DNA of 64,000 nt from a virus. Under the pieces are notes generated by a model. That model saw nothing but the letters and a program-made list of their open reading frames with translations, searched no databases and was not told where the DNA came from. The DNA is taken from IMG/VR virus record IMGVR_UViG_3300002036_000006; one strand, 5' to 3'. This document shows positions 942 to 63,503 of the stretch, one piece after another. The position numbers and the translations under genes were made by a program. Position 1 is the stretch's first letter; the number at the start of each line of letters is the position of its first letter.

Positions 942-1295
942 CTAGCCATTTGTTCTATTCCTCAATCTGAATGACTCATTAGACCTTATTTGTGCCGCCT
1001 TGTCAAGTGCAACTTGAGCTGCTCTCTCGTATTGCTCTGGCTTAGCCCATCCAGCAACAAGCCCTATTCCAACGTCAGGCTCTTCTGATAGATGATCTAT
1101 TACCTTTACAACATCTGACTCTGCAACGTCACTCCTGTCGAACCACGCCCTGCTAGCAGCCTTAATTATGCGCATCTCTGGGTGAGGCCTCTCTTTCTTG
1201 GATCGGTCCATGTATCCCTCACAGAACCCCTTACTTCCAACGGTGACAGTCCTCCACTCATCTTCTTGTTTAACCTGATATATAAAGCTATGCAT
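942..1295 (-). CDS. hypothetical phage protein
   Basis: 117-aa ORF with SD-like GGA upstream, co-oriented with neighbours. Confidence 0.7.
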   Translation of the reverse strand: MHSFIYQVKQEDEWRTVTVGSKGFCEGYMDRSKKERPHPEMRIIKAASRAWFDRSDVAESDVVKVIDHLSEEPDVGIGLVAGWAKPEQYERAAQVALDKAAQIRSNESFRLRNRTNG

Positions 1296-1445
1296 ATTCC
1301 ATCATCTCCTGAGCGTCATCGTACCCATCCCAATTGTCAACCCCTGCACCCTGAAGACAGCCTAAGAACTTTGAATCTTCTTCAAGATCATCGACGTAGT
1401 GCATCTTCGTTTACTATATCTGAAATCAAATCTCTTATATTCATA

Positions 1446-1676
1446 TTATCCACCGTTGTATCGTTTCTGTTTCTCTTCTTCAAAAATTTTGTGTAGGTTT
1501 ACATTGTACACCAAAATACTCATGTCCTCACTCCTAGGGGGGTAGTTCGTCAAAAGCTCAGTCGCCGCATCACATAATCCGCGAAGTATTTCAAGCTCTC
1601 GCCTGTCGCTAGTCCTCTCACTTTCCCTGCGCATCAACTCTTCGCGCACATGTTCTGACTGTAATCCCATTACCAT
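1446..1676 (-). CDS. hypothetical phage protein
   Basis: 76-aa ORF, GAGG upstream. Confidence 0.65.
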   Translation of the reverse strand: MVMGLQSEHVREELMRRESERTSDRRELEILRGLCDAATELLTNYPPRSEDMSILVYNVNLHKIFEEEKQKRYNGG

Positions 1677-1764
1677 ATATCTACCTCATTGAATTAGATT
1701 GACCAAAAGTCTTTATGACCTCAGTTTGTTTGTGCTTTCCATCAAGGTACAAATTCTCATCAAC

Positions 1765-1959
1765 TTATAATGCTTGCTCTTTGCTGTCAAATTGATTGCC
1801 CTCAATATCAACCCATTCCATATGAAGGGATCTGTTTATGTATCTCTCGACCTGTACAACATAAACCTCCTTCTTGTCTCTGCTTTCCTGAAACTTAACT
1901 ACTCTGTATCTGTGCATATCATCTGACCCTGTATGTTTCAAGAACACAATCCAGCTCAA
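1765..1959 (-). CDS. hypothetical phage protein
   Basis: ORF track; C-terminal part resembles ORF 440..664 (Y.VQ...G/EWVD...F.S...A). Confidence 0.55.
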   Translation of the reverse strand: MSWIVFLKHTGSDDMHRYRVVKFQESRDKKEVYVVQVERYINRSLHMEWVDIEGNQFDSKEQAL

Positions 1960-2146
1960 GAGCGGTCATCGGATCGGGTCTACTCCTGTCAAGATCATTT
2001 ATCCAGAAAGCTCCTTCCTTGACCCAAGTCTCAATCCTCTCAAAGCCCATTAGACTTTTAAAAAATCCCACCGATCTTGATACCGTTATTGATGGATCTC
2101 CATCTCTTGTGAACTGCATTGATATTCTCTTCATATTCATCTCCAT
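1919..2146 (-). CDS. hypothetical phage protein
   Basis: 75-aa ORF; GGAG within its first codons suggests a slightly downstream start. Confidence 0.6.
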   Translation of the reverse strand: MEMNMKRISMQFTRDGDPSITVSRSVGFFKSLMGFERIETWVKEGAFWINDLDRSRPDPMTALELDCVLETYRVR

Positions 2147-2186
2147 TCTGCCGAGAGCAGAAGTTTAGTGCCTCCCCGTTAATTTA

Positions 2187-2445
2187 CAGAAAGGTCTATG
2201 TGGGGGTGATTAAGTGTTTTCATATACAACTGAAGCCAAGTATATAATTGCACCAATAGGTGTCCATGATAATGCTATATAGTATAGCCAAGATGGTGAC
2301 CAGACACCAAGCAATAAGTCAGCAGACATCGGTGCACATGCTAAAAATAAAAACAACCAAGACAGCTTCATAATAATCTCCTCTGTGCCGCGCACAGAAT
2401 ATATTGTACTTGCCAGAAATATATCAGAAAGGTTTACATGGGGGT
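2187..2445. repeat. two copies of an imperfect 21-bp direct repeat
   Basis: CAGAAAGGTCTATGTGGGGGT (2187-2207) and CAGAAAGGTTTACATGGGGGT (2425-2445), 18/21 identical. Confidence 0.7.
2210..2395 (-). CDS. small membrane protein
   Basis: two hydrophobic segments; GGAG precedes the internal Met of MKLSWLF. Confidence 0.55.
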   Translation of the reverse strand: MRGTEEIIMKLSWLFLFLACAPMSADLLLGVWSPSWLYYIALSWTPIGAIIYLASVVYENT

Positions 2446-2676
2446 ATATATAATACCACTACCCCCGTACTATATCACAAAAGCCCTATAGGGGGGAGTA
2501 AATTAATTATATTTAATTATATTGTTTTATTTATTTATATGTGGTAGTTGATTGTATCTGTACCACTATCTATAGTTATTTATCGGTAATAAGATTAATT
2601 AATTGTAATGTTGCTTGCGTTTGATTGACAACTATATATAGTGTGAACCCATAACCAACAACATGAGACTATATAC

Positions 2677-2889
2677 ATGAATGCTGAACACCAATATGCA
2701 GAGCAGGCAATAAACAACTGGCTAATTCTTAATAGGAGGGCTGAGCTGTTATTAAAACGTGATGAGATTCACGAGGCAATGACTAACCCCAACCTAACGC
2801 CAAGCGAACGAGCCGCAAACATTACCGCATCTAATGTGATAACGTCTAGACTGATACTAATCAACCAATCAATTAAAGGTAACTCATAA
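2677..2889 (+). CDS. hypothetical early protein
   Basis: first ORF after the AT-rich divergent region; TAATG coupling to the next gene. Confidence 0.65.
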   Translation: MNAEHQYAEQAINNWLILNRRAELLLKRDEIHEAMTNPNLTPSERAANITASNVITSRLILINQSIKGNS

Positions 2890-3077
2890 TGAGCTGTAAG
2901 ATAACAACACTAGGCTATATGGTTGATATGAAACTATCCATAGAAAGAAACTTAAGGTATCTTAAGTCTGTAAACACTAGAGACCCGCGCATAAAGATGG
3001 AGAGAAAGAAAGCGGAGAGCGATATAAAATGTTTAGATGAAGCTATCCTTATAGTTAAGGAGTCAACCGAATGTTAG
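2889..3077 (+). CDS. hypothetical early protein
   Basis: 62-aa ORF, translationally coupled. Confidence 0.6.
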   Translation: MSCKITTLGYMVDMKLSIERNLRYLKSVNTRDPRIKMERKKAESDIKCLDEAILIVKESTEC

Positions 3078-3259
3078 TTGAACGAATAGAACTAATAGCA
3101 GATGGTATCATGTTGCACTATACAGACTTAGACGCAACGCTAGAGAATCCACCAGTAAGGGCAATCAGTACAGAGCTACACGGCGTTACTACCTTGCATA
3201 ATAGGTATAGTGATGCTGTTGCGGAGCTGGAGAGTAGCATCAATGAGGCGTTCCAATGA
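3071..3259 (+). CDS. hypothetical early protein
   Basis: AAGGAG SD; ATGA overlap with the next gene. Confidence 0.65.
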   Translation: MLVERIELIADGIMLHYTDLDATLENPPVRAISTELHGVTTLHNRYSDAVAELESSINEAFQ

Positions 3260-3492
3260 ACAAGGGCATACAAAACGAGATAGACAAAGTTGAGGATAGC
3301 TTAGCCTCCATACAATCAAGCATACCGCTCAAAGGGTATGTAGATATACCAGTTAGCGATATAATTATACTTGAGTCCCTATTAAAGGCATATAGAGAAC
3401 TGCTCTATCAAGTAAACGAAACGCCTGAAACAGAATTATATATTGATCATCTAAACAATTATCCAATAAATAAGTATATCACTATAGTCTAA
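3256..3492 (+). CDS. hypothetical early protein
   Basis: 78-aa ORF followed by a terminator-like hairpin. Confidence 0.65.
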   Translation: MNKGIQNEIDKVEDSLASIQSSIPLKGYVDIPVSDIIILESLLKAYRELLYQVNETPETELYIDHLNNYPINKYITIV

Positions 3493-3517
3493 ACCACACT
3501 AAGCTATTGATTTATAT

Positions 3518-3566
3518 AGGGCTGGACAAACCGCATATTATTCGGTGTACTCCAGTCCTTTTATTT
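3518..3566 (+). terminator. rho-independent terminator-like hairpin
   Basis: AGGGCTGGA...TCCAGTCCT stem followed by TTTATTT. Confidence 0.6.
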
Positions 3567-3906
3567 AACTATAACATTACCATTCGTTAATAATCCAACA
3601 CGCCGTTGTAATTATGTGGTAGTAGGTAGGTAAGACTTAACACAATTTGTCGCCGTATGTCAATAGCTACGCCGTTTTATTACCATATTGTAACAAAGCT
3701 TGACAATAAACAGCATTTGTGAGTGAGAAGCACGCGTTGTGGATATATCTATAGCTCATAGTTTGGTATATATGTAAAGGCCTATAAGGTAATAAGTAGT
3801 ATTGTTACTATAGTTTAATGTATTGTAGTTAGTTTGATTGATAGTGTTAGAGTGTCACCACTGAGTAAGGATGCCTTGCTCGATTCAACGATTAAGAGAC
3901 TACAAA

Positions 3907-4152
3907 ATGAGCGACCTAATAACTGTTACCATTCGAGATGGTAGAGTGACAAGCAATGAATTCATAGAGATGGACGTAGAATGCTATACCTCAATTGAGG
4001 ACTTACTATATATGGCTGAGGTGGAAATAAGAGAAGGTGATGTTTGGATATTCAATGCAGGAAGAGCTGACCGCATAACAGACCTGATCTGTACTAGCGG
4101 TGTGCTTTTCATTACATGCAGTGATAGTAAATACAAGATTACAGATAGTTAA
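3907..4152 (+). CDS. hypothetical protein
   Basis: ORF track 3871..4152; internal ATG (MSDLI) preferred as start. Confidence 0.55.
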   Translation: MSDLITVTIRDGRVTSNEFIEMDVECYTSIEDLLYMAEVEIREGDVWIFNAGRADRITDLICTSGVLFITCSDSKYKITDS

Positions 4153-4163
4153 TAAAATAGTTA

Positions 4164-4192
4164 TTGACTTACCATCAACCATTAGATACTAT
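4164..4192 (+). promoter_or_regulatory. sigma70 promoter
   Basis: TTGACT-17 bp-TACTAT, preceded by A/T-rich GTTAATAAAATA. Confidence 0.8.
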
Positions 4193-4261
4193 ATATTTAT
4201 TGAAACAAACGAGAGGTATTTAGTTAGCGGCAAACATTACAAAGAGTTAATAAAATAATTC

Positions 4262-4290
4262 TTGACTTTGACAACACCGACAACTAATAT
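4262..4290 (+). promoter_or_regulatory. sigma70 promoter
   Basis: TTGACT-17 bp-TAATAT, preceded by the same GTTAATAAAATA block. Confidence 0.75.
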
Positions 4291-4296
4291 ATATTC

Positions 4297-4740
4297 ATGG
4301 CAAAGAAAACTAAACGTAGGCTAGCGAGAGAGGCACAAGCGAGACTTAAAATTGCTTTATCGCTTGGCATTGAATCAGCACAAGGTCTAACATTGACCGA
4401 GGAGCAGATACAGAGAAACGCTAGGAAGTCTAGAAAGTTAAGAGACATAAGTCAATTAACAGACGCTAGAACGTGGGTTAACCATACCGACAATGGCAAG
4501 TGTGACAGAAGTGTCATAGGTGCTAAGCTAGGCTATCGACGTGCTACAGTTTTCGAGGGCAATCGACTAACGAGTGACAACAAGACTCGCTTAGACCATA
4601 TTGACCGTGAACGCCTCAAGGTAACACTAGGCGCACCAGTGCCAGAAAGTAAGATTACATTACAGCAATTTAATGTTATTAAGTCTTTACAAGCCAGTGG
4701 CGATGTTATAGACTATAATCAGTTGATAGCAATTAGCTAG
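4297..4740 (+). CDS. basic hypothetical early protein, probably leaderless
   Basis: 147-aa K/R-rich ORF; ATG 7 nt after the -10 box, no SD. Confidence 0.75.
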   Translation: MAKKTKRRLAREAQARLKIALSLGIESAQGLTLTEEQIQRNARKSRKLRDISQLTDARTWVNHTDNGKCDRSVIGAKLGYRRATVFEGNRLTSDNKTRLDHIDRERLKVTLGAPVPESKITLQQFNVIKSLQASGDVIDYNQLIAIS

Positions 4741-5075
4741 AGACGAAAAGTTTTAAGGCGTAACGCTGTAAAGTATCCGCTACAATTTAAGTAACACCCT
4801 CGATGGCTATTGGCGAGGTTAAACAATCCACGATAGCAAAGCAAAACCGAAAGTATTATGTTTTGTGGAGGCACTAGACTCACTGAGACCATAGGCTAAA
4901 GCATTGTGTTATATCGTAGGGCTAGTATTTGCAGGTCATTGACACTGCAAGCGGTTGAGTAAATCCCGCGCTAGATTGTTGTTTGATTAGTGTTAACTAG
5001 CGTTGATCGCGTAGGCCTTTCAGTGAAAGATAACCAAGTAGCTCCGGTTAGTTAACACTAATCAAGCAATAAAGC
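4741..5075 (+). ncRNA. candidate structured non-coding RNA
   Basis: ORF-free, several hairpins, including a 24-bp stem 4976-4999/5049-5072 (17 bp perfect). Confidence 0.4.
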
Positions 5076-5087
5076 TTGTAATTGTAG

Positions 5088-5161
5088 ACCTAGGTAGCTC
5101 AGTTGGTAGAGCGCTCGCCAGATTTAGCGAGAGGTTGGTGGTTCGAGTCCATCCCTAGGTA
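5088..5161 (+). tRNA. tRNA-like gene with 8-nt anticodon loop (CAGAUUUA), no CCA
   Basis: acceptor ACCTAGG/CCTAGGT; D arm GCTC-AGTTGGTA-GAGC; anticodon stem CTCGC/GCGAG; T loop TTCGAGT. Confidence 0.7.
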
Positions 5162-5173
5162 CAATTAATTTAT

Positions 5174-5254
5174 CCCGTTGTCGTCTAAAATGGTAGGATA
5201 GTTGCGCGTTTAGTCGCTTCAGATGTAAGGTTCGAATCCTTACCAACGGGACCA
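5174..5254 (+). tRNA. tRNA-like gene with degenerate anticodon arm and encoded CCA
   Basis: acceptor CCCGTTG/CAACGGG; 6-bp T stem GTAAGG/CCTTAC around TTCGAAT; ends ACCA. Confidence 0.65.
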
Positions 5255-5291
5255 ATTAACCAGACTGCAATAGCAGACAATGGAGATTATG

Positions 5292-5894
5292 ATGACTACT
5301 CAATATCAAACTAATGGCTTCACCTTAAACGTAGACCTCGACGCTATGCCAGACTTGCACAACGAGTTTCAAAAGCGCACATCAGTGTGGGCTACTATGG
5401 CTGATAAGTTTCGATCCACATACCTGCCAACCGCGCTGGCACATTACTTTGTGCAAGGCAACATCAAGCCAATCAATGACATGGTTGTGGCAATTGACAA
5501 TGCGAAAGGTCTAGGCCGTTTCAAGGCTACGCTTAAGATGATTTCTGCGCATGTCTGGGACAATGAAAAAGGGCGCTTTGTTCGTAACCCAGACCGCAAA
5601 AAGTACGATGCGAAAGTGGCACGTATGACAAAGCTCAACGATGATGGCGTACCACAATGGGCTGTTATACTAGGCAAGCATCTAGAGCGCGAGATTGTTG
5701 ACAGCAAAAAAGCCGAGTCTCTATCATTCGGTGACAAAGCTATGGCTAAATTGCAAGCCATTGTTAACATGGCGAATACTGCCGAATCAGATGCAGACAA
5801 AGCAATCTTTGCCCCATTCCTAGAAAGCGTGTCAAACCAGCTCGAAGAAATGAGAGCAGCAAAAGCAAACACGGCAACGTCTCAAGCATTCTAA
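5292..5894 (+). CDS. hypothetical protein, probably highly expressed
   Basis: ORF track 5280..5894; GGAG at 5282-5285 favours start 5292; own terminator follows. Confidence 0.85.
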   Translation: MTTQYQTNGFTLNVDLDAMPDLHNEFQKRTSVWATMADKFRSTYLPTALAHYFVQGNIKPINDMVVAIDNAKGLGRFKATLKMISAHVWDNEKGRFVRNPDRKKYDAKVARMTKLNDDGVPQWAVILGKHLEREIVDSKKAESLSFGDKAMAKLQAIVNMANTAESDADKAIFAPFLESVSNQLEEMRAAKANTATSQAF

Positions 5895-5933
5895 TCTAGC
5901 GAATCCCCCAAACCCTACCGCTAGATAGGATAG

Positions 5934-5969
5934 GCCCACGTTATACTTATTGTGTAGCGTGGGTTTTTT
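5934..5969 (+). terminator. rho-independent terminator
   Basis: GCCCACGTTATAC/GTGTAGCGTGGGT stem plus T-run. Confidence 0.8.
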
Positions 5970-6089
5970 AATTCACGCCTCTAAGGTAATATTAATTGGC
6001 GGCATCTACGCACGACAACAATCCAATCATAGTCTCTCTTTGTTAGTCTGCTAGGTGTCACCAATTAATATTAATCTGGAGGTTAAGAA

Positions 6090-6353
6090 ATGAACATCAA
6101 ACCGTACATTTTTGTAGGCTGCTTTATTGCTGGCGCTCTAGCATGTGTGACAGTGTCTTACTTTTGGGGTGAATATGGATACCTTTTTGTATCATCACTA
6201 TTCATATGCTTTTCTGTGCTTTCTATAGGTCTAAAAGAGTTTGCGAGGGATGCATCGCTAGCTATACCTTTTGCAATTATATATGCTCTTATATGGCCTC
6301 TATCTTTAGCTCTAGAGCTATGGTTTAAAAGTGGCTGGAGGCATAAAACATGA
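6090..6353 (+). CDS. membrane protein
   Basis: three hydrophobic segments; GGAGG SD. Confidence 0.75.
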   Translation: MNIKPYIFVGCFIAGALACVTVSYFWGEYGYLFVSSLFICFSVLSIGLKEFARDASLAIPFAIIYALIWPLSLALELWFKSGWRHKT

Positions 6354-6544
6354 TAGCAATTTACCTAGTCGTTGCACTAATAGTAGCAGCACACCACGCC
6401 AACGCCATAGCATCAGAGGCAAGTTACTCACAATCAGAGAGACACATCGTAGCATTCAAGTGTGTGTTAGCTGGATTAGTGTGGCCTTTGCTCGCAATAC
6501 TGGAGTTGGTTTACTTAATCCTTGACTATAGGAGTAGCCAGTAA
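6350..6544 (+). CDS. small membrane protein
   Basis: hydrophobic; WPL motif as in the upstream ORF; ATGA overlap. Confidence 0.65.
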   Translation: MIAIYLVVALIVAAHHANAIASEASYSQSERHIVAFKCVLAGLVWPLLAILELVYLILDYRSSQ

Positions 6545-6879
6545 TGCTAGACAGCAACCAAACAATACCAAGTCAGTCTCTTTCTGAGATCGCAATAGGC
6601 GAACAGCAGTCATGTGTCGGACTTATATGGCTTGAAAAAACAAAGGGAACCGAACGCAAGGTTACTCTTTACAATCTCAACTCACTTTCCGCAAGAAACA
6701 AAGACAGCCTTATCGCACTTCATATCAATGACGATGTGGATCCAAGCTATCCGATGATACGATCTCGAGGCAAGGGTTTCACACAAGTAACATACTATTC
6801 AAAATCAAAGGGTTGCGAGATGGCATGTCGTTGTGATACTAATCACGGAATACACTTCAAACCGAAGTCCGAACTGTAA
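6544..6879 (+). CDS. hypothetical protein
   Basis: 111-aa ORF, TAATG coupling. Confidence 0.7.
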   Translation: MLDSNQTIPSQSLSEIAIGEQQSCVGLIWLEKTKGTERKVTLYNLNSLSARNKDSLIALHINDDVDPSYPMIRSRGKGFTQVTYYSKSKGCEMACRCDTNHGIHFKPKSEL

Positions 6880-8152: not shown

Positions 8153-8401
8153 ATGACTAACTCAATTAACCCAACTAACGAAACTGTAACTGTAACTGTA
8201 GCCGATCACGCAAATGGCGGTGTAAGTAACCTTGAGCTTACTGTTGACAAAGGCACTGCAATCAGCGCGATCTTAGAGCAAGCTGGCGTCACTCCGAAAG
8301 AGGGCCAAGTTGTGAACTTCAAAGGCGCTCAAGTTTCTGGCTCTGACACTGTTGGTGAGCGTGGCCTAGTTAGCGTATCAGCTAACACTAAAGCTGCCTA
8401 G
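8153..8401 (+). CDS. ubiquitin-like (beta-grasp) small protein
   Basis: 82 aa with beta-beta-alpha-beta pattern (VTVTV..LELTV..GTAISAILEQAG..VVNFKG..V..SDTV..LVSV), ending TKAA; strong SD; adjacent to E2/E1/JAB genes. Confidence 0.75.
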   Translation: MTNSINPTNETVTVTVADHANGGVSNLELTVDKGTAISAILEQAGVTPKEGQVVNFKGAQVSGSDTVGERGLVSVSANTKAA

Positions 8402-8456
8402 CAGTAAAGCAGTAACACGACCGAACTAAGCGACCAATGGAAGCTTAGACTTTGAA

Positions 8457-8487
8457 GGGGGCAGGTATTAATCTGCTCCCTTTTTTT
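8457..8487 (+). terminator. rho-independent terminator between the Ubl and E2 genes
   Basis: GGGGGCAG-gtattaat-CTGCTCCC followed by T7. Confidence 0.8.
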
Positions 8488-8500
8488 AATGGAGACAATC

Positions 8501-9802
8501 ATGGATCTTTCAAACGTCATACCAGATGGTAGCTGCATAAACCTAAGCCGCGAATCACTTGGCTGTCTATCAGAAGTCAGGTCAGCAACAAGCATCATGC
8601 GTGATGCAAACTCATATGCAGATATGGCTCGTTCAGAGGTAAGAAATATTAGATCTCAAAGATCTTCTTCTTCTCCGAAGCCAGAGTCACTTGCAAATTT
8701 AGATCAGGTAAGCAGCTACTGTAGGAGCATGCGTTACATTACCCTCTATAGAGCTAACTTGGCAAGGTGTAGTCGAGAGAGAGACAGGCTAGAAAGAAAG
8801 GCTAACGAAGCGATCTCAAGACTTTCCGATATTGATTTTGGAGAAAACCTGATAGACTTATCAGATTTAAATGAATCAATAAACTTATTCAGCTTTGATG
8901 TTGAGATAACATCATGCACAATCACAGAAAACGGTGCTGTCCGCCTAACGTACAGAGTTGGCGAGCACATCATGAGGCCTAACGCAGACACCTCTGATTT
9001 AATATTCGAATGGGCTGACCGATACGGTCATGGTGCAGAGTGGGCAAACCGATACATGCATTGTGGCATAAAGCGTCCAAGCATGGACGTATATGTTGAC
9101 TGCCACATAGATGGCGATCATCTTCACGATGTCATAATTCAGTTCCCACTAACCGAGCACAACCTATCTCAAGAGAATGGATTCATAGCTCACAACAGAA
9201 TAGGTGGGCCACGAGCCAGAGAGATCATTGAGGGCGTTGAAGACCCAGACTGGGACTATGATGAGGCTAGCGCTTGCTGGCATCCACATTCAAGACTTCG
9301 CAGGTATGCAGGTCAGTATTATTTCAGTACATGCACTGGAACTTATCAGCAATTCATGATCGAGAGAGCTAGAGATGGAGACTTTATAGGCCTGACCTCT
9401 CAGCTTATCGGATACCTAACGGGCTTCAACCCTAACGATCAGTGGGGCGGAGGCTATACGAGAGAGATCTCAATCGATTACATGGAAGACTACGGAGACA
9501 GCATACCTATCTGGAGTCCAGTGTTTAACTGTCCGAATGTTTCAGAAGGCAATCGTCAGATTGTATTTACGAACAGGCCTAACAACTTCCACTACAACTA
9601 TCACGTTCAGCTTGAGGATGTTGATGGAAACAAAACTCTCATAGATGTAATGCAGAACACGGAGTCTCCTTTCATATTTAATGATGAGGGCATCAGATTC
9701 ATCAAGGTTGTCACCGAGCAGGATCAGGTGCGCATGAATACCTTGATGGCTAGGAGATCAAGCCGCAGAACATCTTCACTTCTCAGGGATTTAGCAGCAT
9801 GA
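8501..9802 (+). CDS. prokaryotic E2-like (UBC fold) protein with N-terminal coiled coil
   Basis: WHPH-x12-CTG, then helices and FNPNDQWG, resembling the HPH/HPN...C.G signature of bacterial E2 families; GGAG SD at 8491-8494. Confidence 0.65.
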   Translation: MDLSNVIPDGSCINLSRESLGCLSEVRSATSIMRDANSYADMARSEVRNIRSQRSSSSPKPESLANLDQVSSYCRSMRYITLYRANLARCSRERDRLERKANEAISRLSDIDFGENLIDLSDLNESINLFSFDVEITSCTITENGAVRLTYRVGEHIMRPNADTSDLIFEWADRYGHGAEWANRYMHCGIKRPSMDVYVDCHIDGDHLHDVIIQFPLTEHNLSQENGFIAHNRIGGPRAREIIEGVEDPDWDYDEASACWHPHSRLRRYAGQYYFSTCTGTYQQFMIERARDGDFIGLTSQLIGYLTGFNPNDQWGGGYTREISIDYMEDYGDSIPIWSPVFNCPNVSEGNRQIVFTNRPNNFHYNYHVQLEDVDGNKTLIDVMQNTESPFIFNDEGIRFIKVVTEQDQVRMNTLMARRSSRRTSSLLRDLAA

Positions 9803-10467
9803 TTAACGTAAAGATACCAACAACTGAGGCATCTCAGTTTGCACTAGGCGCTGTGTCAAATCTAGAATCACAGATAACAGAGTACTCATCAACCATTGAT
9901 CGATTGAAGAGAAAGTTAAGAGAGAATAAGAAGACGGCAATCAGAAGATTCCGATCGATGCAGTCCAGCATGAGAGAGATGAGGGAAACAGAGAACTGGG
10001 AAAAGTTGCATCGAATGACATCATCCATGAGGTCTGACAAAGAGAACATTGGATACTGCTCTGATGGGCTTAAACAGTACATTGAGAGATACGACGAGGC
10101 TACTGCTGACATTGAGGTTACTGAACTATCTCTGACTGATACTCAATATGCAGTGACATGCATTGATGATTCAGTAATGATCAGCATATTCACACCATAC
10201 GGCGCAACTATTAACCTTGATTGCTTTGGTGAAATGGGGGCATCAGTGGAGGTAACGAGTAAGAACCTTCAGCCTTACTACAACTCATCTGAAATGCTAA
10301 CAACAATCAACCTAAACACTATGATTATTGGCAATGCAGATAGTGGAGCAACACTCCAACAGAGAGTAGATCAGTGCATCAAGATATGCAAAGACTGCTA
10401 CTCTCAATCAATTCAACAGGAAGATGATGAAGAAGTCATTTACCTAGATGACGACCCTGAATTCTAA
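9799..10467 (+). CDS. unknown protein: coiled coil plus alpha/beta domain, acidic tail
   Basis: ATGA overlap with the E2 gene; heptad-like N-terminal ~100 aa. Confidence 0.8.
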   Translation: MINVKIPTTEASQFALGAVSNLESQITEYSSTIDRLKRKLRENKKTAIRRFRSMQSSMREMRETENWEKLHRMTSSMRSDKENIGYCSDGLKQYIERYDEATADIEVTELSLTDTQYAVTCIDDSVMISIFTPYGATINLDCFGEMGASVEVTSKNLQPYYNSSEMLTTINLNTMIIGNADSGATLQQRVDQCIKICKDCYSQSIQQEDDEEVIYLDDDPEF

Positions 10468-10482
10468 AACCAAGAGAACATT

Positions 10483-11187
10483 ATGACTAACGATTCAATA
10501 AGAAGCCTAGAGCTTATCGACTTCGAGAACCATCCCGAGCTTTGCATTAACATCATCGGCCTTGGGGCTGTAGGCTCACGAGTATTCGAGCAGTTGATAT
10601 GCTTGGGCGCTCGAAACATTAAGTGCTTTGACTTCGATGAAGTTGAGGGACACAACCTTCACAACCAACTTTGGGTTCAAGCTGACATCGGAGCACCAAA
10701 GGTTGAGGCTGCATCAGAGTGGCTCAAAGAAAAGTACGCCATTGATGCCGACGAGTTTGACATTGAGTTCCATGATGTTCGTGTAACCAAAGAGATGGCA
10801 CAAGAAATGACTGGTATCGTTATGCTTTGTGTTGATTCATTCGATGCTCGACGTGACATCATGTCTGGCTCTGTCAAGAGTGGCAATGTGTCCCTAGTCA
10901 TTGAGGGGAGATGTGCTCCTAGCTTTCATAATGTCCGATGCGTTAACCCAGAAGATGGCGATCAAGTCGAGGCGTTCTACGAATCCCTTGGTAGTGACGA
11001 TGACCCTAACCTTCATGTCAGTGTTTGCGGACTTCCGATTAGCTTCGCTCCAGTGATGATTGCCTGTGGGACTATGATGGTTATGCAGTGTATTAACTAC
11101 GTTGCGAATGACTACATCGCTTCATACAATCGTATGACTAACTTCATCTCATCTCCAGTTCTTGAGCTGGGTGGTGGCGACCTTTAA
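10483..11187 (+). CDS. ThiF/MoeB/E1-family adenylating enzyme
   Basis: IIGLGAVGS nucleotide-binding loop, DFDEVEGHNLHNQ, KVEAA, CVDS.DARR, candidate catalytic Cys in VSVCG. Confidence 0.92.
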   Translation: MTNDSIRSLELIDFENHPELCINIIGLGAVGSRVFEQLICLGARNIKCFDFDEVEGHNLHNQLWVQADIGAPKVEAASEWLKEKYAIDADEFDIEFHDVRVTKEMAQEMTGIVMLCVDSFDARRDIMSGSVKSGNVSLVIEGRCAPSFHNVRCVNPEDGDQVEAFYESLGSDDDPNLHVSVCGLPISFAPVMIACGTMMVMQCINYVANDYIASYNRMTNFISSPVLELGGGDL

Positions 11188-11225
11188 TCAGAACCAATAA
11201 ACAACAAACACTGTCAGGATACAAT

Positions 11226-12362
11226 ATGACTACTGAACCAAAGAAAGTAATAAGCGAAGCTCGCAAGATCAACTCCGTTGCCAGAAAGAATAAGGCTGGC
11301 GTTGTGCCGATGTTCTCCGCTAACATGCCTCAGTCTCCACGAATTATCTTCACAACAAAAGCATGGGAGCAGATGTACACCCTGATTCCACTTGCCAAGA
11401 AGATGAACACAGAGGTTACTTGGTATGCCCCATTGATTCACCAAGAAGATACCAGTGATCGAGCATGCATCACTGTACCAGAGATATTTGTTCCTGATCA
11501 AGTTGTAGCCAGCGCAACATGCGAGGATTGCGAGTGGGGCAAGGTTCTTGACGAAGCCTACGAGAAGGGATATGACCTAGATACTATGCGAGGATGGTTC
11601 CACCTACATCCAATGGTATCTGTTGAGCCTAGCGCAACCGATGAGGAGCAGACTCAAGATATGATTGAGGAGTGGGACACGTTAATGCGTGGCATCTTCA
11701 ATGACGCTGGAGGCTACAAGCTGGACTACTTCGATGCGAATGCTGGACCTGACGGAACAATCTACCATGATCTCCCTATCGAGATACATGCGCCAGAAGA
11801 GTTCGAGCTTGATAGAATCACACAGAACTTCAAAGACCGAGTCAAGAAGAAAGTGTATGCGCCTGTCAATAACTTTCAGAACAGCCAAGGCAATCAAAAA
11901 AAAAGCACACAAACCAGCGGGGCAACAGGCGGGGGAAACGTAAGTAGTCTATACAATCAGCTAGACTTTGGTGACGTTGATGATCAAGATGACGACAGCA
12001 CCATTGATTGGTTTAACAATGGCAATGGGTTTGATGACACCCCTAGCTCATCCATACAGGATAAGCATTACTTCTGTGATGTCGGCGGCGTGTCAGTATA
12101 TGCTTCTCATGAGGAAGTTCTTCTTCTTGGAGAGGACGCAGACTTATTGTACTATGACGCAACCAATCTCGGAATCACCATAGCTGGTGCTCTCAAGTCT
12201 GAGTCTGTTACCATTGAAGACATCGTTGGATTCATACAAACAATCCCAGAGATTAAGGAAGACGACCTTCCTGAAAATTGGTCTGGCCTCATGAGGGCTA
12301 TCGATGCTCAAGAGCAGTACCTTGCCGACCTAGAGGAGAACAATTCACAGGCAGCAAACTAA
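11226..12362 (+). CDS. JAB/JAMM (MPN+) metallopeptidase with C-terminal extension
   Basis: exact HxH-x7-S-x2-D motif (WFHLHPMVSVEPSATD, nt 11601-11642), upstream EV and IFVPDQ motifs. Confidence 0.88.
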   Translation: MTTEPKKVISEARKINSVARKNKAGVVPMFSANMPQSPRIIFTTKAWEQMYTLIPLAKKMNTEVTWYAPLIHQEDTSDRACITVPEIFVPDQVVASATCEDCEWGKVLDEAYEKGYDLDTMRGWFHLHPMVSVEPSATDEEQTQDMIEEWDTLMRGIFNDAGGYKLDYFDANAGPDGTIYHDLPIEIHAPEEFELDRITQNFKDRVKKKVYAPVNNFQNSQGNQKKSTQTSGATGGGNVSSLYNQLDFGDVDDQDDDSTIDWFNNGNGFDDTPSSSIQDKHYFCDVGGVSVYASHEEVLLLGEDADLLYYDATNLGITIAGALKSESVTIEDIVGFIQTIPEIKEDDLPENWSGLMRAIDAQEQYLADLEENNSQAAN

Positions 12363-13167: not shown

Positions 13168-13223
13168 ATCAAAGGCGCATGTGTTGCGACAGAAATAATA
13201 GAAAACAAACGTGGAGAATAAAG

Positions 13224-13790
13224 GTGAAATTATATACTCGTGTAGCTCAAACGGTTAGAGCGTTCGCTAGATTAGCGATAGGTTGGGCGGTTCGAATCCC
13301 CCCACGAGTACCATTCTTTGAGACTCGGTACTGCCCTCACGATGTTGCTAAGTCTATGGTTGAGGAGTGTTGCTTCCCCTTTAGGCAAGGCGTGAGATTT
13401 CTAGAACCTAGCGCTGGCACTGGAGGTATATCAGATCTAATATATCTTTACCACGAAGACGTCACTGCGATAGAGTTGCATGGGCCTCACTTCGATAAGC
13501 TAAAAAACAAACCATACAAAACAATACGAAGGGACTTCCTTACCATTGAAGAGAGCGAGGTGGGCAGTTTCGATTACATAATCTCCTGCCCACCTTTCGA
13601 TACAGTGTCCCACCTAGATCACATGAAGACACTGCTTCGCAATAACGGTCAGATCATAGCTCTAGTTATGGATAAGTGTATCGATTCATATTGGAGGCAG
13701 TTCTATACCGAGTTAAACCTAGACTTTAAAGCGCCAAGCGGGGAGTTATTGAGATGTGGTATCGTAAGGTATTCGTATGGAGACAGCTAG
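13224..13790 (+). CDS. class I SAM-dependent methyltransferase-like protein (amino-MTase motifs)
   Basis: FLEPSAGTG motif I, AIEL, RRDFL, FDYIISCPPF motif IV variant; GGAG-7nt-GTG start at 13224. Confidence 0.75.
   Translation: MKLYTRVAQTVRAFARLAIGWAVRIPPRVPFFETRYCPHDVAKSMVEECCFPFRQGVRFLEPSAGTGGISDLIYLYHEDVTAIELHGPHFDKLKNKPYKTIRRDFLTIEESEVGSFDYIISCPPFDTVSHLDHMKTLLRNNGQIIALVMDKCIDSYWRQFYTELNLDFKAPSGELLRCGIVRYSYGDS
13236..13313 (+). tRNA. tRNA-like element, nominal anticodon GAU, with CCA, inside the MTase ORF
   Basis: acceptor ACTCGTG/CACGAGT + ACCA; D arm GCTC/GAGC; loop TAGATTA (A33, U37 non-canonical); TTCGAAT. Confidence 0.75.
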
Positions 13791-14217: not shown

Positions 14218-14772
14218 ATGTCAGGCTACATTGAAATATCTAGGGCTGCTGTTTATGCAGCTATGGCTCATGGAGCTATAGGTCATCAAAGAAAATACAC
14301 TGGCGTACCATACATCGAGCACCCAGCTAGGGTTGCTAGACTTGTAGCTGAATACTGTGGCGACGACTATAAGATGATAGCTGCTGCTTGGCTTCATGAC
14401 GTGGTTGAAGATACAGACATCAAGCTAGATGAAATAGTAATGTGCTTTGGCGAGAATATTGCTGGTCTTGTTAATGATCTAACAGATGTTAGCAAGCCGG
14501 AAGATGGTAATCGTTCTGAGAGGAAAGCAATAGATCGTGCTCACACTGCTGCTGCATCAGATAGGGCAAAGACTATCAAGCTGTGCGACTTAATCGACAA
14601 CACTTCCGACATACTCAGCAACGATAGAAAGTTTGCTGCCACTTATGTCAAAGAAAAAATTCTATTACTTGATGTGCTGCGAGGGCCGACTGTTCCAGTT
14701 GACCTTCTTAAAAGAGCCAATGATCAGGTGCAAGAAGCTAAACAAATATTAACTCAAGAGGGGTTCATGTAA
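14218..14772 (+). CDS. HD-domain (p)ppGpp/alarmone hydrolase-like protein (RelA/SpoT hydrolase, Mesh1-like)
   Basis: AH..QRKY.G.PYIEHP..VA, AAWLHDVVEDT, LTD, IKLCD.IDN. Confidence 0.85.
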   Translation: MSGYIEISRAAVYAAMAHGAIGHQRKYTGVPYIEHPARVARLVAEYCGDDYKMIAAAWLHDVVEDTDIKLDEIVMCFGENIAGLVNDLTDVSKPEDGNRSERKAIDRAHTAAASDRAKTIKLCDLIDNTSDILSNDRKFAATYVKEKILLLDVLRGPTVPVDLLKRANDQVQEAKQILTQEGFM

Positions 14773-26804: not shown

Positions 26805-29800
26805 CTAACCCCCATTAACAATCCTTCTTGCGGCATCTATGTTTGTCTGCAAGTTCCTTCTTGCTTCGGCTGGTATATTCCTCTCAGAGAATTTCTTCAG
26901 AACGTTTTCTGCACTTTTCTCTGGGAAGGTATATGCTGGCTTCCTACCCCTAAGTATCAACTGTATATTCCCGCCTATCTGAGATGGCTTTCCGTCCTTA
27001 GCTTTCTTATATCCAGAAACACCAGCAGTGCTAAGAGACTTGGCTATCTCGTCATCCGATAAACCGAAGTATCTTGCAGCTTCAACCTTACTTATAAGAG
27101 TTTCAAAGTACCTATCACTTGCTTTCTGAACATCAGTTAGCTTGTTGCTCAGTGAGCTTTCACCAAGCTGATTGAATGTGAACACAGAAGATGTGAATTT
27201 TTTCTTTGCAGACCTAAGTATCCTGTCTTGCTCCCAAGCCCTTTGCTGCAAACCCTTGACTACATCAAACTTAATTGGCTTGAATCCTGCAAGTCTCTGA
27301 ACGAAATCACCTAGCTCAACCTCCTGACCGTTGAACTTATTAAAGTCCTCGTCGGAAACAAGTGACCTTGCAACTGCAACTCCATCCCTGTAGAATCCAT
27401 TTCCAAAAGTACTTGCCCCAACATGAGCAGAGGCCTTCAATGTTTTCTCTAGGTATGTGTCATCTTCCTTGTATATCTCATTTCCAAAATCATCTCTACC
27501 AGTTATCGCTTCAGATATAGTAGTCAATCCAAAAGTAGGAGAGAGGAATGGGGATGTCAATGCTCCCATTGCTTTGAATACAACTTCAGATGGAGTCTCT
27601 TCTGGGTCAGCATTGAATACTTGATTCAAAACCTCACCAAATATTCCATAGTTTCCTAACCTTGAAACGTTGAAGTACTCAACACTCTTTCCATCAGACG
27701 CAATGTTTGTGAACTGCCTGTCTATGTTGGCATAGTACTCTGGAGAAAGTCTTCCTATCATCTCCTCCATCTGAGGATCAAAAACCTTTATCTCTTCATC
27801 GTCATCACCAAGAAGAGATCCCAGTCCGCCAACCACAGATGCAACTCCTAAACCCACAACTGATGGCATGAATACAGCGCCAGCAACTCCAAAAAGACCA
27901 GCACCAACTGGGCTACTAAGCATGTCTTTTGAGAACCTGAACTCCTGCCTAGCCTGCCTTACCATTTCAATATTAGACCTATCATAATTAGGTATATTCA
28001 ATCTGCCATACCTGTCAGAAGACATAATGAATTCTCTATTGAGAGATGACACCTGTTCTTTCGCAGATATAAGCATTCCAGTATACCACCCAACAAACCC
28101 ACCACCAACGAATGGAAACTTCTGTAGCTGCTTAACAGCAGAGGGGCTATATGGAGCATATATGCCAGTCTTCCTTGCATAGTCAGTCGCGTATTTGTTG
28201 GCATTAAATACATTCATCCCATAGTAGTTTTGCGCAGTCCTAAACCTTGCATTATATATTACCTTCTGAGGAACCTCATCTCCAAGCTTATGTAGCGACA
28301 TCATCATGCCAGTCCATCCAGTATAAGCTCTGGTGAATGGTTTATTAGCAACACCATCCTCACTATTTAACCCTTCTGGTAAAGCTTGATCTAGAACTTG
28401 AAACATTCTTTTAATTATGTCTCCAGATATTTGTGTTTGAGCTGTAATATCCTGCACTCTTGCACTACCGCCAGCAATGCCAAGCTCTGCTTTAAGATCA
28501 ATTGTATTAGACTTTCCTAACGCTTTATCAAGTGCTTGCTGGTACGCATCAACGACAAGATCAAAGTTATCCCTGAGCAATGGAAGATTCTGAGCCACTA
28601 TTCCTGCTCCAGATATTGCATTTGCAGCGCCAACGGCTGGATCTAGAACAGTCAAAGAAAGCTTGGTTGCTCCAGAAAGTGTGTGCAAGAATCCACCTAT
28701 GCCAGTGTCGTAAACTCCAGCGCTATCTATGGTGTCTAGTATATATGACATCTCTTCAGTGGCATACATGCCTTGAAGCTTGTTGAAGTTTGCTGGATCT
28801 GCAATCTTAATCTCGACTGGAGCCGAAACTCCAGCGGCAACAGCATCTTCTCTACTGGCAAACACGCCGCTTCCTAGAGAAGATTGTATAATTGAGTTCG
28901 CGTACTGATTATTAAGCCTGAATCTTGCAAGCCTATTAACACTGTGCGCAATCCTTTTTACTGGGTCTGTTATCTCACCTAAGAATGCTCGCTCTTCGGC
29001 AGAAACATTTCCTCTCTTCTGGAATATTCCTGCGTACTGAGTTCCTGCATCTGGACCTAGCCTGTAATTGCTGGCTGAGTTATTGGGAACAGTGTCTATT
29101 TCAGCAAGCTTCCTATTGATAACCCTCTGGGCTTCAGCAACGACTGACGAATCATTAGACTCAAGTCCGTATGCAGTTCCTATTCTTTCCTGAAGAAAGT
29201 TTCTATAGTTGTCAACTATCTGCTTCTCTGAATCGGTTTTAGGATTTCTTCTTGATCTCAAGAAATCAGAAACATCTCCATCGTATGCTTCGTAACTTCT
29301 GGATACGTGGAATGGATTGCTTTCAAATTGATCTATGAAATCCAAGTGCTTCTCAAGCATCCTTCCTGTAGTTCTTTCATCAAGAAGATTCTTATATAGC
29401 GCCCTTAAACCCTGCTTGTTCTCAAAGCCACCAAGTGCTGCCGCAACTGATGATGGGGTTGAGCCGGACTCTGACAAAAAGAATCCTTCAGTTGCTTCAT
29501 GGAATTCAGATATGCTTTTAGATGACTCTATTGATGAGGTAAACGATTGTATCCTTTCACTATATGCATCTGCATCATCACCCACCTTTCTACTTATAAA
29601 CTCAGTAAGCCCATCCAGTAAAACAGATGAAGTTAGTGGGCTATCTCCACCTATGGCATCCTCACCAACCAAGCTTTTTATCCAATCCTTGCCGCTCGAT
29701 TCTGAATCGAAAGCTGCGTACTGCAATCCGTCAGTACCACCCGATGAATCTATGGCTGCGTTTAACGCCTCTTCAGATGCCACAACAGATTCGATAGCAG

Positions 29801-62660: not shown

Positions 62661-62674
62661 GTAAATATTAAAAT

Positions 62675-62749
62675 CTGTGTGTAGCTCAGTCAGGTTAGAG
62701 TCCTTGGTTTGGAACCAAGATGCCGCTGGTTCGAATCCAGCCATGAAGA
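62675..62749 (+). tRNA. tRNA-Pro(UGG), weak acceptor stem, no encoded CCA
   Basis: CTTGG-TTTGGAA-CCAAG arm; GCTGG-TTCGAAT-CCAGC. Confidence 0.75.
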
Positions 62750-62768
62750 TGTATTTAATTAGACACCA

Positions 62769-63147: not shown

Positions 63148-63306
63148 CCACGCAGACCAATTATAGAATTATGAAACATAGTAACGAAACAATATTAACG
63201 AAAGGGCTGACTGGATCTGAAGGATTCATTCGCCTTGTATCGTATAATGATTTCATAGGGAGAGAGGAGTGGACTTAGTTTAATTAAACTAAATATCATT
63301 CTTCTA

Positions 63307-63337: not shown

Positions 63338-63345
63338 ATTTTTGA

Positions 63346-63419: not shown

Positions 63420-63420
63420 C

Positions 63421-63498: not shown

Positions 63499-63503
63499 AT
63501 TTA

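What the first reader, a model, noticed from the sequence alone, without database searches (positions are those of the whole stretch)
8153..12362. Phage-encoded ubiquitin-like conjugation operon: Ubl, E2, unknown partner, E1 (ThiF), JAB peptidase
Seen: five co-oriented, closely spaced genes. They encode an 82-aa beta-grasp-like protein, a protein with an HPH...CTG E2-type motif, a coiled-coil protein, a ThiF/E1 with an intact GxGxxG and D-x2-N-L-x2-Q, and a JAB with an exact HxH-x7-S-x2-D motif. Established: Ubl+E1+E2+JAB is the core of bacterial ubiquitination-like pathways. Examples are the Bil anti-phage systems, which conjugate Ubl to phage proteins, the CBASS Cap2/Cap3 pair and PRTRC-type operons; those are host or mobile-element systems. 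Inference: here the virus carries the complete writer/eraser set in its early-middle region. It may tag host proteins (defence, transcription, proteolysis) or its own proteins, or counter host Ubl-based immunity. I cannot check whether homologous phage operons have already been characterised.
Basis: partly seen in the sequence, partly recalled or inferred. Interest (0 to 1): 0.95.

Follow-up and report, generated by a model that had tools for sequence, protein, structure and literature searches.

The report
Phage-encoded ubiquitin-like tagging cassette
An uncultured marine phage carries its own small ubiquitin-like tag, an activating enzyme, a trimming protease and a probable transfer enzyme; such kits have so far been studied only as bacterial anti-phage defences, and distant versions also occur in crAss-like gut phages and jumbo phages.

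Summary

The 437-aa "E2" is only a candidate. H265, H267, C282, G284 and D317 are invariant in 9 homologs. ESM-Atlas look-alikes of two homologs name only E2 families, below the tool's trust marks. No whole-model fold search and no profile search found an E2.

The tag ends in K-A-A, not G-G.

The cassette sits in the replication arm of a roughly 70-kb phage from an algae/marine metagenome. It recurs in at least 7 marine viral contigs. It was not found in 185,579 prokaryote species genomes. Same-composition cassettes occur in cultured crAss001 (Gp76-79) and in Xanthomonas jumbo phages.

I found no paper describing this. Earlier notes of this scan report similar phage cassettes on other DNA (e1-5320390, e1-3443917, e1-2147654).

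Verdict: a new, virus-borne variant of bacterial Ubl conjugation systems. Targets and purpose are unknown.

The parts
8153..8401 (+). Ubl: 82-aa beta-grasp protein ending ...S-A-N-T-K-A-A. K80 and A82 are invariant in the four closest family members.
8454..8490 (+). Terminator-like hairpin (13 pairs, 6 G-C) followed by a T run, between the Ubl gene and the next gene. Possibly an attenuator that gives excess Ubl transcript.
   Evidence: Pattern scan and sequence. This is a consensus match only and is not tested.
8489..9802 (+). 437-aa His/Cys protein, the candidate E2-like transfer enzyme. Probable true start is 8501, after GGAG. Layout: N-terminal coiled-coil hairpin (about aa 21-112); central alpha/beta domain (about aa 121-335) with H265-P-H267 (nt 9281-9289), C282 (nt 9332-9334), G284 and D317 (nt 9437-9439); C-terminal FN3/Ig-like sandwich (about aa 340-421).
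   Evidence: AF2 model pLDDT 74.6, pTM 0.70. Invariant residues in 9 homologs. FN3 and coiled-coil matches. E2-family leads from the ESM Atlas for homologs P0011 and P0010. No direct E2 hit.
9799..10467 (+). 222-aa protein: N-terminal coiled coil, then an alpha/beta part and an acidic tail. Accessory. Found only here and in L001 (22% identity).
   Evidence: ORF overlaps the upstream stop. Only coiled-coil-type weak Pfam hits. Absent from L005 and L007.
10483..11187 (+). Minimal E1 (ThiF/MoeB/UBA5-like single adenylation domain, 234 aa). G26-x-G-x-x-G31 at nt 10558-10575. D50-x-D52...N58-L-x-N-Q62. D118. Crossover-loop C182-G (nt 11026-11028).
   Evidence: Pfam ThiF E 1.5e-23. Best solved relatives by profile: UBA5 at E 2.6e-13, then UBA1/UBA6, MoeB, NAE, BubCD and ThiF. 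60 invariant columns in 7 homologs, including C182.
11226..12362 (+). JAB/JAMM metallopeptidase: domain at about aa 40-200 with E63, H126, H128, S136 and D139 (motif at nt 11601-11642). Then a low-complexity linker and a conserved C-terminal domain.
   Evidence: Invariant motif in 5 homologs. Nearly all PDB hits of the profile are JAMM deubiquitinases (Rpn11, AMSH, BRCC36, CSN5), aligned on the motif, at E 0.08-1. Weak JAB hits in NCBIfam, PADLOC and Pfam.

Best explanation
This is a virus-owned ubiquitin-like protein-conjugation cascade, expressed with the phage's replication genes.

Shown:
- A beta-grasp tag.
- A minimal E1 with intact ATP-binding motifs and a conserved crossover-loop cysteine.
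- A JAMM peptidase with a complete active site.
- A fast-evolving multidomain protein with an invariant His-x-His...Cys-x-Gly...Asp constellation.
- All of these kept together in one cassette across phage lineages.

Inferred mechanism:
1. The E1, probably a homodimer like MoeB and UBA5, adenylates the C-terminal carboxylate of the tag. That terminus is ...K-A-A as encoded, or is exposed by JAB trimming (L001 carries one extra Ser).
2. The E1 takes the tag as a thioester on Cys182.
3. The tag passes to Cys282 of the 437-aa protein, which acts as an E2-like carrier.
4. The coiled-coil and FN3-like domains of that protein, and here the 222-aa coiled-coil partner, select targets without a separate E3. 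Bil E2s are thought to work this way.
5. The tag ends up on lysines of phage or host proteins.
6. The JAB peptidase matures the tag and/or removes it again.

The targets and the biological purpose are unknown.
For: - Ubl fold.
- E1 family and motifs. Protein-modifier E1s (UBA5, UBA1/6) outrank ThiF and MoeB.
- JAMM site.
- Invariant H265/H267/C282/G284/D317, including the distant L009 homolog.
- Model topology in the order helix, beta-meander, HPH, hairpin, Cys, helices.
- Only E2 families (Prok-E2_D, UQ_con) are named among the Atlas look-alikes of two homologs.
- Conserved synteny in L001, L002, L004, L005 and L007.
- Same-composition cassettes in crAss001 and in Xanthomonas jumbo phages.
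- The target-side proteins evolve fastest (28% and 22% identity, against 64% for the E1).
- From the literature: Ubl + E1 + E2 + JAB operons do conjugate proteins (Bil, Bub; PMC11601596, PMC10557695, 10.1101/2023.09.04.556158). A conserved His upstream of the Cys marks bacterial E2s (PMC1779556).
Against: - No fold search of the whole 437-aa model returned an E2. PDB, AFDB clusters, Swiss-Prot, BFVD, VIA wide and atlas gave only coiled-coil and FN3 matches.
- No Pfam or PDB profile hit to E2.
- The Atlas leads lie below the tool's own trust marks: feature scores 0.79-0.83, TM 0.46.
- The tag lacks the C-terminal Gly-Gly of all characterised conjugated Ubls.
- The complex prediction gave no verdict.
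- There is no expression or biochemical evidence. No RNA run holds the stretch.
Confidence: 0.55

Rival explanations
1. E2-independent tagging. The E1 alone conjugates the tag, as in archaeal SAMP/UbaA or Thermus TtuB/TtuC. The 437-aa His/Cys protein is not a UBC-fold carrier. It would be something else that is functionally linked: a Cys/His peptidase, a transglutaminase-like ligase, an E3-like adaptor or a substrate.
For: No E2 match in any direct fold or profile search. The best atlas row for the whole model was a Transglut_core cluster at TM 0.30. The protein has large non-E2 domains. E2-less Ubl systems with a JAMM peptidase exist (PMC4443979, PMC4895103, seen by title and abstract).
Against: The order His...Cys...Asp, with the Cys directly before a helix, fits an E2 rather than a papain or transglutaminase fold, where the order is Cys...His...Asp. 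This comparison is from my own knowledge. The only named Atlas look-alike families are E2 families. The protein is present in every full-length cassette found.
Confidence: 0.2
2. Sulfur-carrier or cofactor-type pathway. The beta-grasp protein is a ThiS/MoaD/TtuB-like carrier. The E1 adenylates it and it is converted to a thiocarboxylate, for thiolation of a nucleoside, tRNA, DNA or small molecule. The JAB trims its tail, as with CysO/Mec+ or QbsE/QbsD.
Against: No rhodanese, cysteine desulfurase, or TtuA/ThiG/MoaE-type partner is in the cassette or its conserved flanks. There is no Gly-Gly terminus. Protein-modifier E1s score above MoeB and ThiF. A conserved 400-aa His/Cys protein has no place in such pathways.
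Confidence: 0.1
3. Primarily counter-defence. The cassette exists to blunt host Ubl-based immunity (Bil, type II CBASS). The JAB would strip host Ubl or CD-NTase conjugates, and/or the phage tag would act as a decoy. It would not run a tagging programme of its own.
For: Host Bil tags phage tail proteins, and DUB domains in phage proteins have been proposed as anti-Bil measures (10.1101/2023.09.04.556158). The big and coiled-coil proteins evolve fast.
Against: A deconjugase alone would suffice, yet the E1 and the tag are the best-conserved parts. The cassette sits with replication genes, not in variable anti-defence islets, in very different phages. Nothing links it to Bil or CBASS hosts.
Confidence: 0.1

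Closest known systems
Bil (BilABCD, types I/II; operon class 6d of Iyer et al. 2006), a bacterial anti-phage Ubl conjugation system
   Same: Separate genes for Ubl, E2(-like), JAB peptidase and E1. Cysteine-based. No E3 gene. In class 6d there is an extra helical protein of unknown role (PMC1779556, PMC11601596).
   Different: Carried by the virus, not the host. The E1 is a single 234-aa adenylation domain, not BilD's tandem IAD-AAD-CYS; the PADLOC BilD hit is only E 4.5e-4 over aa 24-127. The tag ends K-A-A, not Gly. The E2 candidate is 437 aa with coiled-coil and FN3-like domains, and no Bil, Pfam or PADLOC model recognises it.
UBA5 / MoeB / ThiF minimal E1s
   Same: One Rossmann-type adenylation domain. 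UBA5 is the best PDB profile hit at E 2.6e-13. A conserved Cys sits before the G-x-P segment. From my own knowledge of MoeB, ThiF and UBA5, this is the crossover-loop position of ThiF C184 and UBA5 C250.
   Different: No Zn-binding CxxC pairs and no UFD/UIS extensions. It is partnered with a JAB and a His/Cys protein in a phage.
Archaeal SAMP/UbaA/HvJAMM1 and Thermus TtuB/TtuC
   Different: Those systems have no E2 and use Gly-Gly tails that also serve in sulfur transfer. Here a conserved His/Cys protein is always present and the tail is Ala.
Type II CBASS Cap2/Cap3 and Bub (6E) systems
   Same: Bacterial E1/E2/JAB chemistry. PADLOC Cap2 'E1-E2' models hit the E1 at E 4.7e-10. BubA and BubCD appear among the structural and profile hits.
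   Different: There is no CD-NTase, no E2-E1 fusion and no DUF6527 protease. Bub uses Tyr/Ser oxyesters (PMC11601596), whereas this cassette keeps a Cys in both enzymes.
Uncharacterised cassette of Bacteroides phage crAss001 (Gp79-Gp76) and of Xanthomonas/Erwinia jumbo phages
   Same: The E1 is full-length similar, 26% identity over 81-91% of the query. crAss001 has a JAB with HSH-x7-S-x2-D (hhalign E 3.5e-4), a His-x-His...C-x-G protein (crAss001 MHSH-x17-CTG; Xanthomonas IHPH-x13-CLGSF, hhalign probability 70%) and a small-residue tail on an upstream Ubl-like protein (KSGA in crAss001, KASGG in Xanthomonas). Both lie among replication genes.
   Different: The proteins are much diverged. The crAss001 tag-like domain is fused to a C-terminal extension, and its E1 carries a 150-aa N-terminal extension. 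crAss001 Gp78 is not significant by hhalign. I read the Ubl-like nature of Gp79 by eye only.
Lambda/T1 tail-assembly TAPI (Ubl) + TAPK (JAB)
   Same: A phage-encoded Ubl next to a JAB peptidase (PMC1779556).
   Different: That is a tail-assembly module with no E1 or E2, and the Ubl ends in Gly. The cassette here is in the replication arm and includes an E1.

Membership tests
ThiF/E1 superfamily (PF00899) | Rossmann-type adenylation domain above the Pfam gathering score, with the Gly-rich loop and the D-x-D...N-L-x-x-Q...D motifs | tested here: met
   83.6 bits against a cut-off of 28.1, E 1.5e-23. The motifs are invariant in 7 homologs.
ThiF/E1 superfamily (protein-modifier E1) | Catalytic cysteine able to take the Ubl as a thioester | tested here: inconclusive
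   C182-G183 is invariant. It lies where I recall the crossover-loop Cys of ThiF, MoeB and UBA5 to be. There was no structural or biochemical test.
Ubiquitin-like beta-grasp modifiers | Beta-grasp fold | tested here: met
Ubiquitin-like beta-grasp modifiers | C-terminal Gly (Gly-Gly), free or exposed by processing | tested here: not met
   The tails are ...TKAA...TKAAS...AKGA and ...AKAA. Only a small-residue tail with a basic residue at position -3 is conserved.
JAMM/MPN+ metallopeptidases | E...H-x-H-x7-S-x2-D zinc site | tested here: met
   E63, H126, H128, S136 and D139 are invariant in 5 homologs. The profile aligns to Rpn11, AMSH, BRCC36 and CSN5 on this motif at E 0.08-1. No Pfam model reaches its cut-off.
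E2/UBC superfamily | Conserved His (of HPN) a few residues upstream of the catalytic Cys | tested here: met
   H265-P-H267 ... C282 is invariant. The spacing is 14 residues here and 5 in L009. A His/Cys pair is the criterion used for bacterial E2s in PMC1779556.
E2/UBC superfamily | UBC fold (N-terminal helix, four-strand meander, Cys loop, C-terminal helices) | tested here: inconclusive
   The DSSP order is compatible. Atlas leads: Prok-E2_D at TM 0.46 over 150 aa, feature scores 0.81-0.83, and UQ_con 0.79. No E2 appears in the PDB, AFDB, Swiss-Prot, BFVD, VIA or atlas searches of the whole model. No HMM hit. The domain could not be folded alone.
Bil (BilABCD) | BilD-type E1 with tandem inactive/active adenylation domains plus a CYS domain; BilA, BilB and BilC recognised by PADLOC models | tested here: not met
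   The E1 is 234 aa. The BilD model hits at E 4.5e-4 over about 100 aa only. There is no BilA or BilB hit, and only generic JAB hits at E 0.015.
PRTRC system | PRTRC_ThiF and PRTRC proteins A-F above the NCBIfam cut-offs, next to ParB | tested here: not met
   PRTRC_ThiF scores 33.5 bits against a cut-off of 144.75. No other PRTRC model hits. No ParB was seen.
Type II CBASS (Cap2/Cap3) | E2-E1 fusion Cap2, Cap3 JAB, and a CD-NTase whose C-terminus is the substrate | tested here: not met
   There are separate genes, a beta-grasp tag and no CD-NTase among the flanking ORFs. Cap2 models hit only the adenylation domain.
Bub (6E / DUF6527) | E1 and E2 without a catalytic Cys (Tyr/Ser oxyesters), plus the DUF6527 serine protease | tested here: not met
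   Both enzymes keep an invariant Cys. No DUF6527 hit.

The most novel reading that the evidence does not exclude
Tailed phages of very different lineages (marine ~50-70-kb phages, crAss-like gut phages, Xanthomonas/Erwinia jumbo phages) run their own ubiquitin-like conjugation cascade. It uses an Ala-terminated tag (K-A-A in place of R-G-G), a minimal E1 and a giant E2/E3-hybrid carrier. With it they modify host or phage proteins during genome replication. Bacterial ubiquitination-like chemistry would then be a weapon or regulator on the viral side too, not only a host defence.
Probability: 0.45. Interest if true: 0.85.

Novelty: new variant of a known kind. Interest (0 to 1): 0.72.

Why it matters
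Bacterial Ubl conjugation (Bil, CBASS Cap2/Cap3, Bub) has been characterised only as host-encoded machinery, mostly anti-phage. A conserved, virus-owned tag/E1/carrier/peptidase set would show that phages use the same chemistry for their own ends.

It would also extend the chemistry to an Ala-terminated tag. And it would give a function to genes now labelled 'thiamine biosynthesis protein' and 'metalloprotease' in crAss-like phages, among the most abundant viruses of the human gut. Because crAss001 and the Xanthomonas phages are cultured, the idea can be tested directly.

Tried and rejected
- Megablast of the cassette and of the structural arm against 50,697 phage records: no match.
- No whole genome is held for the window.
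- A single-protein scan of IMG/VR found nothing. The profile scan found L007-L009.
- The 185,579-species genome collection has no relative of the E1 family.
- The 437-aa protein has no homolog in the word-indexed 5.8-billion-protein set and only four in the exhaustive 1.84-billion search. A profile of the central domain added nothing.
- Profiles of the central domain (A7) and of the motif region (A9) against the PDB gave only DARPin/ankyrin repeat noise. The Ubl profile gave armadillo-repeat noise.
- Pfam Prok-E2_B and Prok-E2_D searched directly in five related phage records: no match.
- Plasmid ThiF hits (Pantoea, Roseomonas) had unrelated contexts and gave no E2 sequences for a profile-profile test.
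- Complex prediction (E1 x2 + Ubl + central domain): no verdict, score 0.00. This is no evidence either way.
- Considered and rejected as memberships: PRTRC, Bil, Cap2/Cap3, Bub (see the membership test). Also the lambda TAPI/TAPK tail-assembly module, because this cassette has an E1 and lies in the replication arm.
- An Ala-terminal precedent in CBASS could not be confirmed from the paper I read, so I do not claim it.

Full report
**1. What is there**

The region holds five closely spaced ORFs on the + strand:
- 8153-8401 (82 aa)
- 8489-9802 (437 aa). The ATG at 8501 is the one preceded by GGAG.
- 9799-10467 (222 aa). Its start overlaps the previous stop.
- 10483-11187 (234 aa)
- 11226-12362 (378 aa)

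A terminator-like hairpin (13 pairs, then a T run) lies at 8454-8490, between the first two genes.

The window is a phage. It has a large terminase subunit, a helicase, a primase, an exonuclease and an internal virion protein. It has a seven-tRNA cluster. A long minus-strand structural block faces a plus-strand replication block, and the cassette sits in the replication block. The source contig is 70,463 bp. It has no near relative among 50,697 phage records. Its DNA is held almost entirely by one 'algae metagenome' run, probably its source. Small parts are held by marine metagenomes. No RNA run holds it.

**2. Conservation**

The E1 has relatives of 45-68% identity on marine and other metagenome contigs and on IMG/VR viral genomes. 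Wherever enough DNA is held, the neighbours are the same:
- L001 (69.8-kb contig): 82 / 419 / 211 / 242 / 364 aa.
- L005 (a TARA Oceans marine metagenome contig): 75 / 395 / 244 / 305 aa.
- L007 (a complete 50.5-kb genome with terminal repeats): 73 / 427 / 239 / 305 aa.
- L004 and L002 are partial.

The 222-aa gene is present only here and in L001.

No relative of this E1 family was found in one genome for each of 185,579 prokaryote species.

Against L001, identity is 64% (E1), 57% (tag), 42% (JAB), 28% (437-aa protein) and 22% (222-aa protein). dN/dS is about 0.2 where it could be computed, with dS saturated.

**3. The tag**

With a six-sequence alignment, AlphaFold2 gives a confident strand-strand-helix-strand-strand-strand model (pLDDT 81.6).
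- Foldseek finds SUMO, archaeal ubiquitin, TtuB and MoaD at E 7e-5 to 5e-4.

The tail is not Gly-Gly. It reads ...TKAA here...TKAAS in L001...AKGA in L004, and ...AKAA in L005 and L007. What is conserved is a basic residue at position -3 followed by two small residues. This is formally like R-G-G of ubiquitin (my comparison).

**4. The E1**

- Pfam ThiF: E 1.5e-23.
- No NCBIfam equivalog reaches its cut-off. PRTRC_ThiF scores 33.5 bits against 144.75.
- PADLOC Cap2 'E1-E2' models and BilD hit only the adenylation core.
- A family profile finds UBA5 first among solved structures (E 2.6e-13), then UBA1/UBA6, MoeB, NAE1/UBA3, BubCD, ThiF and MccB.
- The Gly loop, D50/D52, N58, Q62, D118 and C182-G183 are invariant.

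C182 precedes a G-x-P-x-x-F...hydrophobic segment. From my knowledge of MoeB, ThiF and UBA5, that places it on the crossover loop, where those enzymes carry their reactive cysteine. This is inference, not a test.

**5. The JAB**

E63, H126-x-H128, S136 and D139 are invariant in five homologs. The family profile's PDB hits are almost all JAMM deubiquitinases (Rpn11, AMSH, BRCC36, CSN5). They align on the motif, at E 0.08-1. NCBIfam, PADLOC and Pfam give only weak JAB-family hits. I accept the assignment from the exact, conserved active site plus consistent weak profile hits. A linker and a conserved C-terminal domain of unknown role follow the JAB domain.

**6. The 437-aa protein**

It is nearly an orphan. 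It has no homolog in the word-indexed 5.8-billion set and four in an exhaustive search of 1.84 billion representatives.

The nine-sequence model (pLDDT 74.6, pTM 0.70) shows three parts:
- a coiled-coil hairpin (aa 21-112);
- a central alpha/beta domain (about aa 121-335);
- an FN3/Ig-like sandwich (aa 340-421).

All whole-model fold searches are filled by the two flanking domains and list no E2. The searches themselves warn that the central part was barely tested.

Profiles of the central domain find nothing in Pfam or the PDB. The Prok-E2_B and Prok-E2_D models find nothing in five related phage records.

Evidence in favour of an E2:
- H265, H267, C282, G284 and D317 are invariant in nine homologs, including the distant L009 protein. 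hhalign gives probability 69% on exactly this stretch. The His-to-Cys gap is 5 residues in L009 and 14 here.
- The same stretch aligns to an 892-aa protein of Xanthomonas jumbo phages at probability 70%.
- The order of elements in the model is helix, beta-meander, HPH, hairpin, Cys, helices, Asp loop. That is what I recall for UBC folds (HPN, Cys, then the Asp-containing loop after helix 2). This is a lead, not a test.
- For two homologs, the ESM Atlas look-alikes of the central domain name only E2 families: Prok-E2_D (structure TM 0.46 over 150 aa; feature scores 0.81 and 0.83) and UQ_con (0.79). All are below the tool's trust marks.
- Iyer et al. used a matching His/Cys pair to recognise bacterial E2s (PMC1779556).

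I put the E2-like reading at roughly 65-70% and record the fold test as inconclusive. A complex prediction of E1 dimer + tag + central domain gave no verdict.

**7. Wider distribution**

tblastn with the E1 finds 45 phage records at 25-28% identity, 44 of them over at least 80% of its length. They include cultured Bacteroides phage crAss001, other Crassvirales, and Xanthomonas/Erwinia jumbo phages.

In crAss001 the neighbours, between primase and UDG, are:
- Gp79: an N-terminal Ubl-like part by eye, then ...KKIKSGA and an extension.
- Gp78: MHSH-x17-CTG.
- Gp77: annotated 'metalloprotease', with HSH-x7-S-x2-D (hhalign to the JAB profile E 3.5e-4).
- Gp76: ThiF.

In the Xanthomonas phage, a 140-aa protein ending ...AKASGG and the 892-aa His/Cys protein precede the E1.

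L009 has a variant order (tag, big protein, JAB, E1). A reverse transcriptase follows it directly and a RadC-like JAB precedes it.

These links are distant. crAss001 Gp78 is not significant by hhalign, and the tags are not alignable. I therefore call them same-composition cassettes, not proven orthologs.

**8. Mechanism**

The most likely mechanism (confidence 0.55) runs as follows:
1. The E1 adenylates the tag's C-terminal carboxylate and takes it on C182.
2. The tag moves to C282 of the E2-like protein.
3. The coiled-coil and FN3-like domains of that protein, and here the 222-aa coiled-coil partner, choose targets without an E3.
4. The JAB matures and/or removes the tag.

The hairpin after the tag gene could give excess tag transcript. 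This is untested.

The folds and motifs of the tag, E1 and JAB are shown. Every chemical step, the targets and the purpose are inferred.

Rivals:
- E2-independent tagging, with the big protein doing something else (0.2).
- A sulfur-carrier pathway (0.1). Against it: no sulfur-transfer partner and no Gly-Gly tail.
- A mainly anti-defence role (0.1). This is compatible with the chemistry above.

**9. Comparison and novelty**

In composition the cassette is closest to Bil (class 6d). It fails the Bil membership tests (E1 architecture, Gly tail, model hits). It likewise fails those of PRTRC, Cap2/Cap3 and Bub.

I found no paper describing a phage-borne E1/E2/JAB/Ubl cassette or assigning this role to the crAss genes. 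The library lacks most subscription journals, so this is not proof of absence.

Earlier notes of this scan report similar phage cassettes on other DNA, including an Ala-Ala-terminated tag and a reverse-transcriptase-linked variant. I treat them as leads. What I tested here agrees with them.

I rate it a new, virus-borne variant of a known kind of system, of high interest mainly because cultured relatives make it testable.

Noticed in passing
L010 (NC_049977.1, Bacteroides phage crAss001) 241-4651: Cultured crAss001 Gp79-Gp76 form a same-composition cassette: a Ubl-like fusion, a His/Cys protein, a JAB annotated 'metalloprotease', and a ThiF annotated 'thiamine biosynthesis protein'. It lies between primase and UDG. 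The public annotation does not recognise it as a ubiquitin-like system.
   Followed up: partly
L012 (PV764601.1, Xanthomonas phage PhiXhv-12) 814-4690: This jumbo phage has a 140-aa protein ending ...AKASGG, an 892-aa protein with Cys-rich ends and the same IHPH-x13-CLGSF motif, and a 227-aa E1. I saw no obvious JAB in the 8.6 kb I examined.
   Followed up: partly
L009 (IMG/VR UViG 3300045988_161125) 1258-6673: A distant variant cassette (tag, big protein, JAB, E1) is followed directly by an RVT_1 reverse transcriptase (E 4e-20) and preceded by a RadC-like JAB. This matches an earlier scan note on a retron-coupled phage Ubl cassette.
   Followed up: partly
window 5088-5162 and 13236-13313: ARAGORN calls a tRNA-like element with a four-base anticodon at 5088-5162. 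It also calls a tRNA-Ile(GAT) that lies inside the 5' part of ORF 13179-13790. A normal seven-tRNA cluster is at 62674-63928.
   Followed up: no
window 14218-14772; L001 12202-12729: An HD_4 (RelA/SpoT-type HD hydrolase-like) protein lies a few genes downstream of the cassette, both here and in L001. L001 also has RtcB, Band_7 and a PRPP-synthetase-like gene in between.
   Followed up: no
window 26805-32114 (- strand): A 1769-aa ORF and several other large ORFs of the structural arm (702, 545, 465, 408 and 346 aa) have no PHROG family at E 1e-5. The virion module is very poorly covered by known phage families.
   Followed up: no
window 8489-10467 vs L001 4088-5984: The His/Cys protein and the coiled-coil protein diverge much faster (28% and 22% identity) than the E1 (64%) and the tag (57%) between the two closest phages. 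This would be expected of target-recognition parts.
   Followed up: partly
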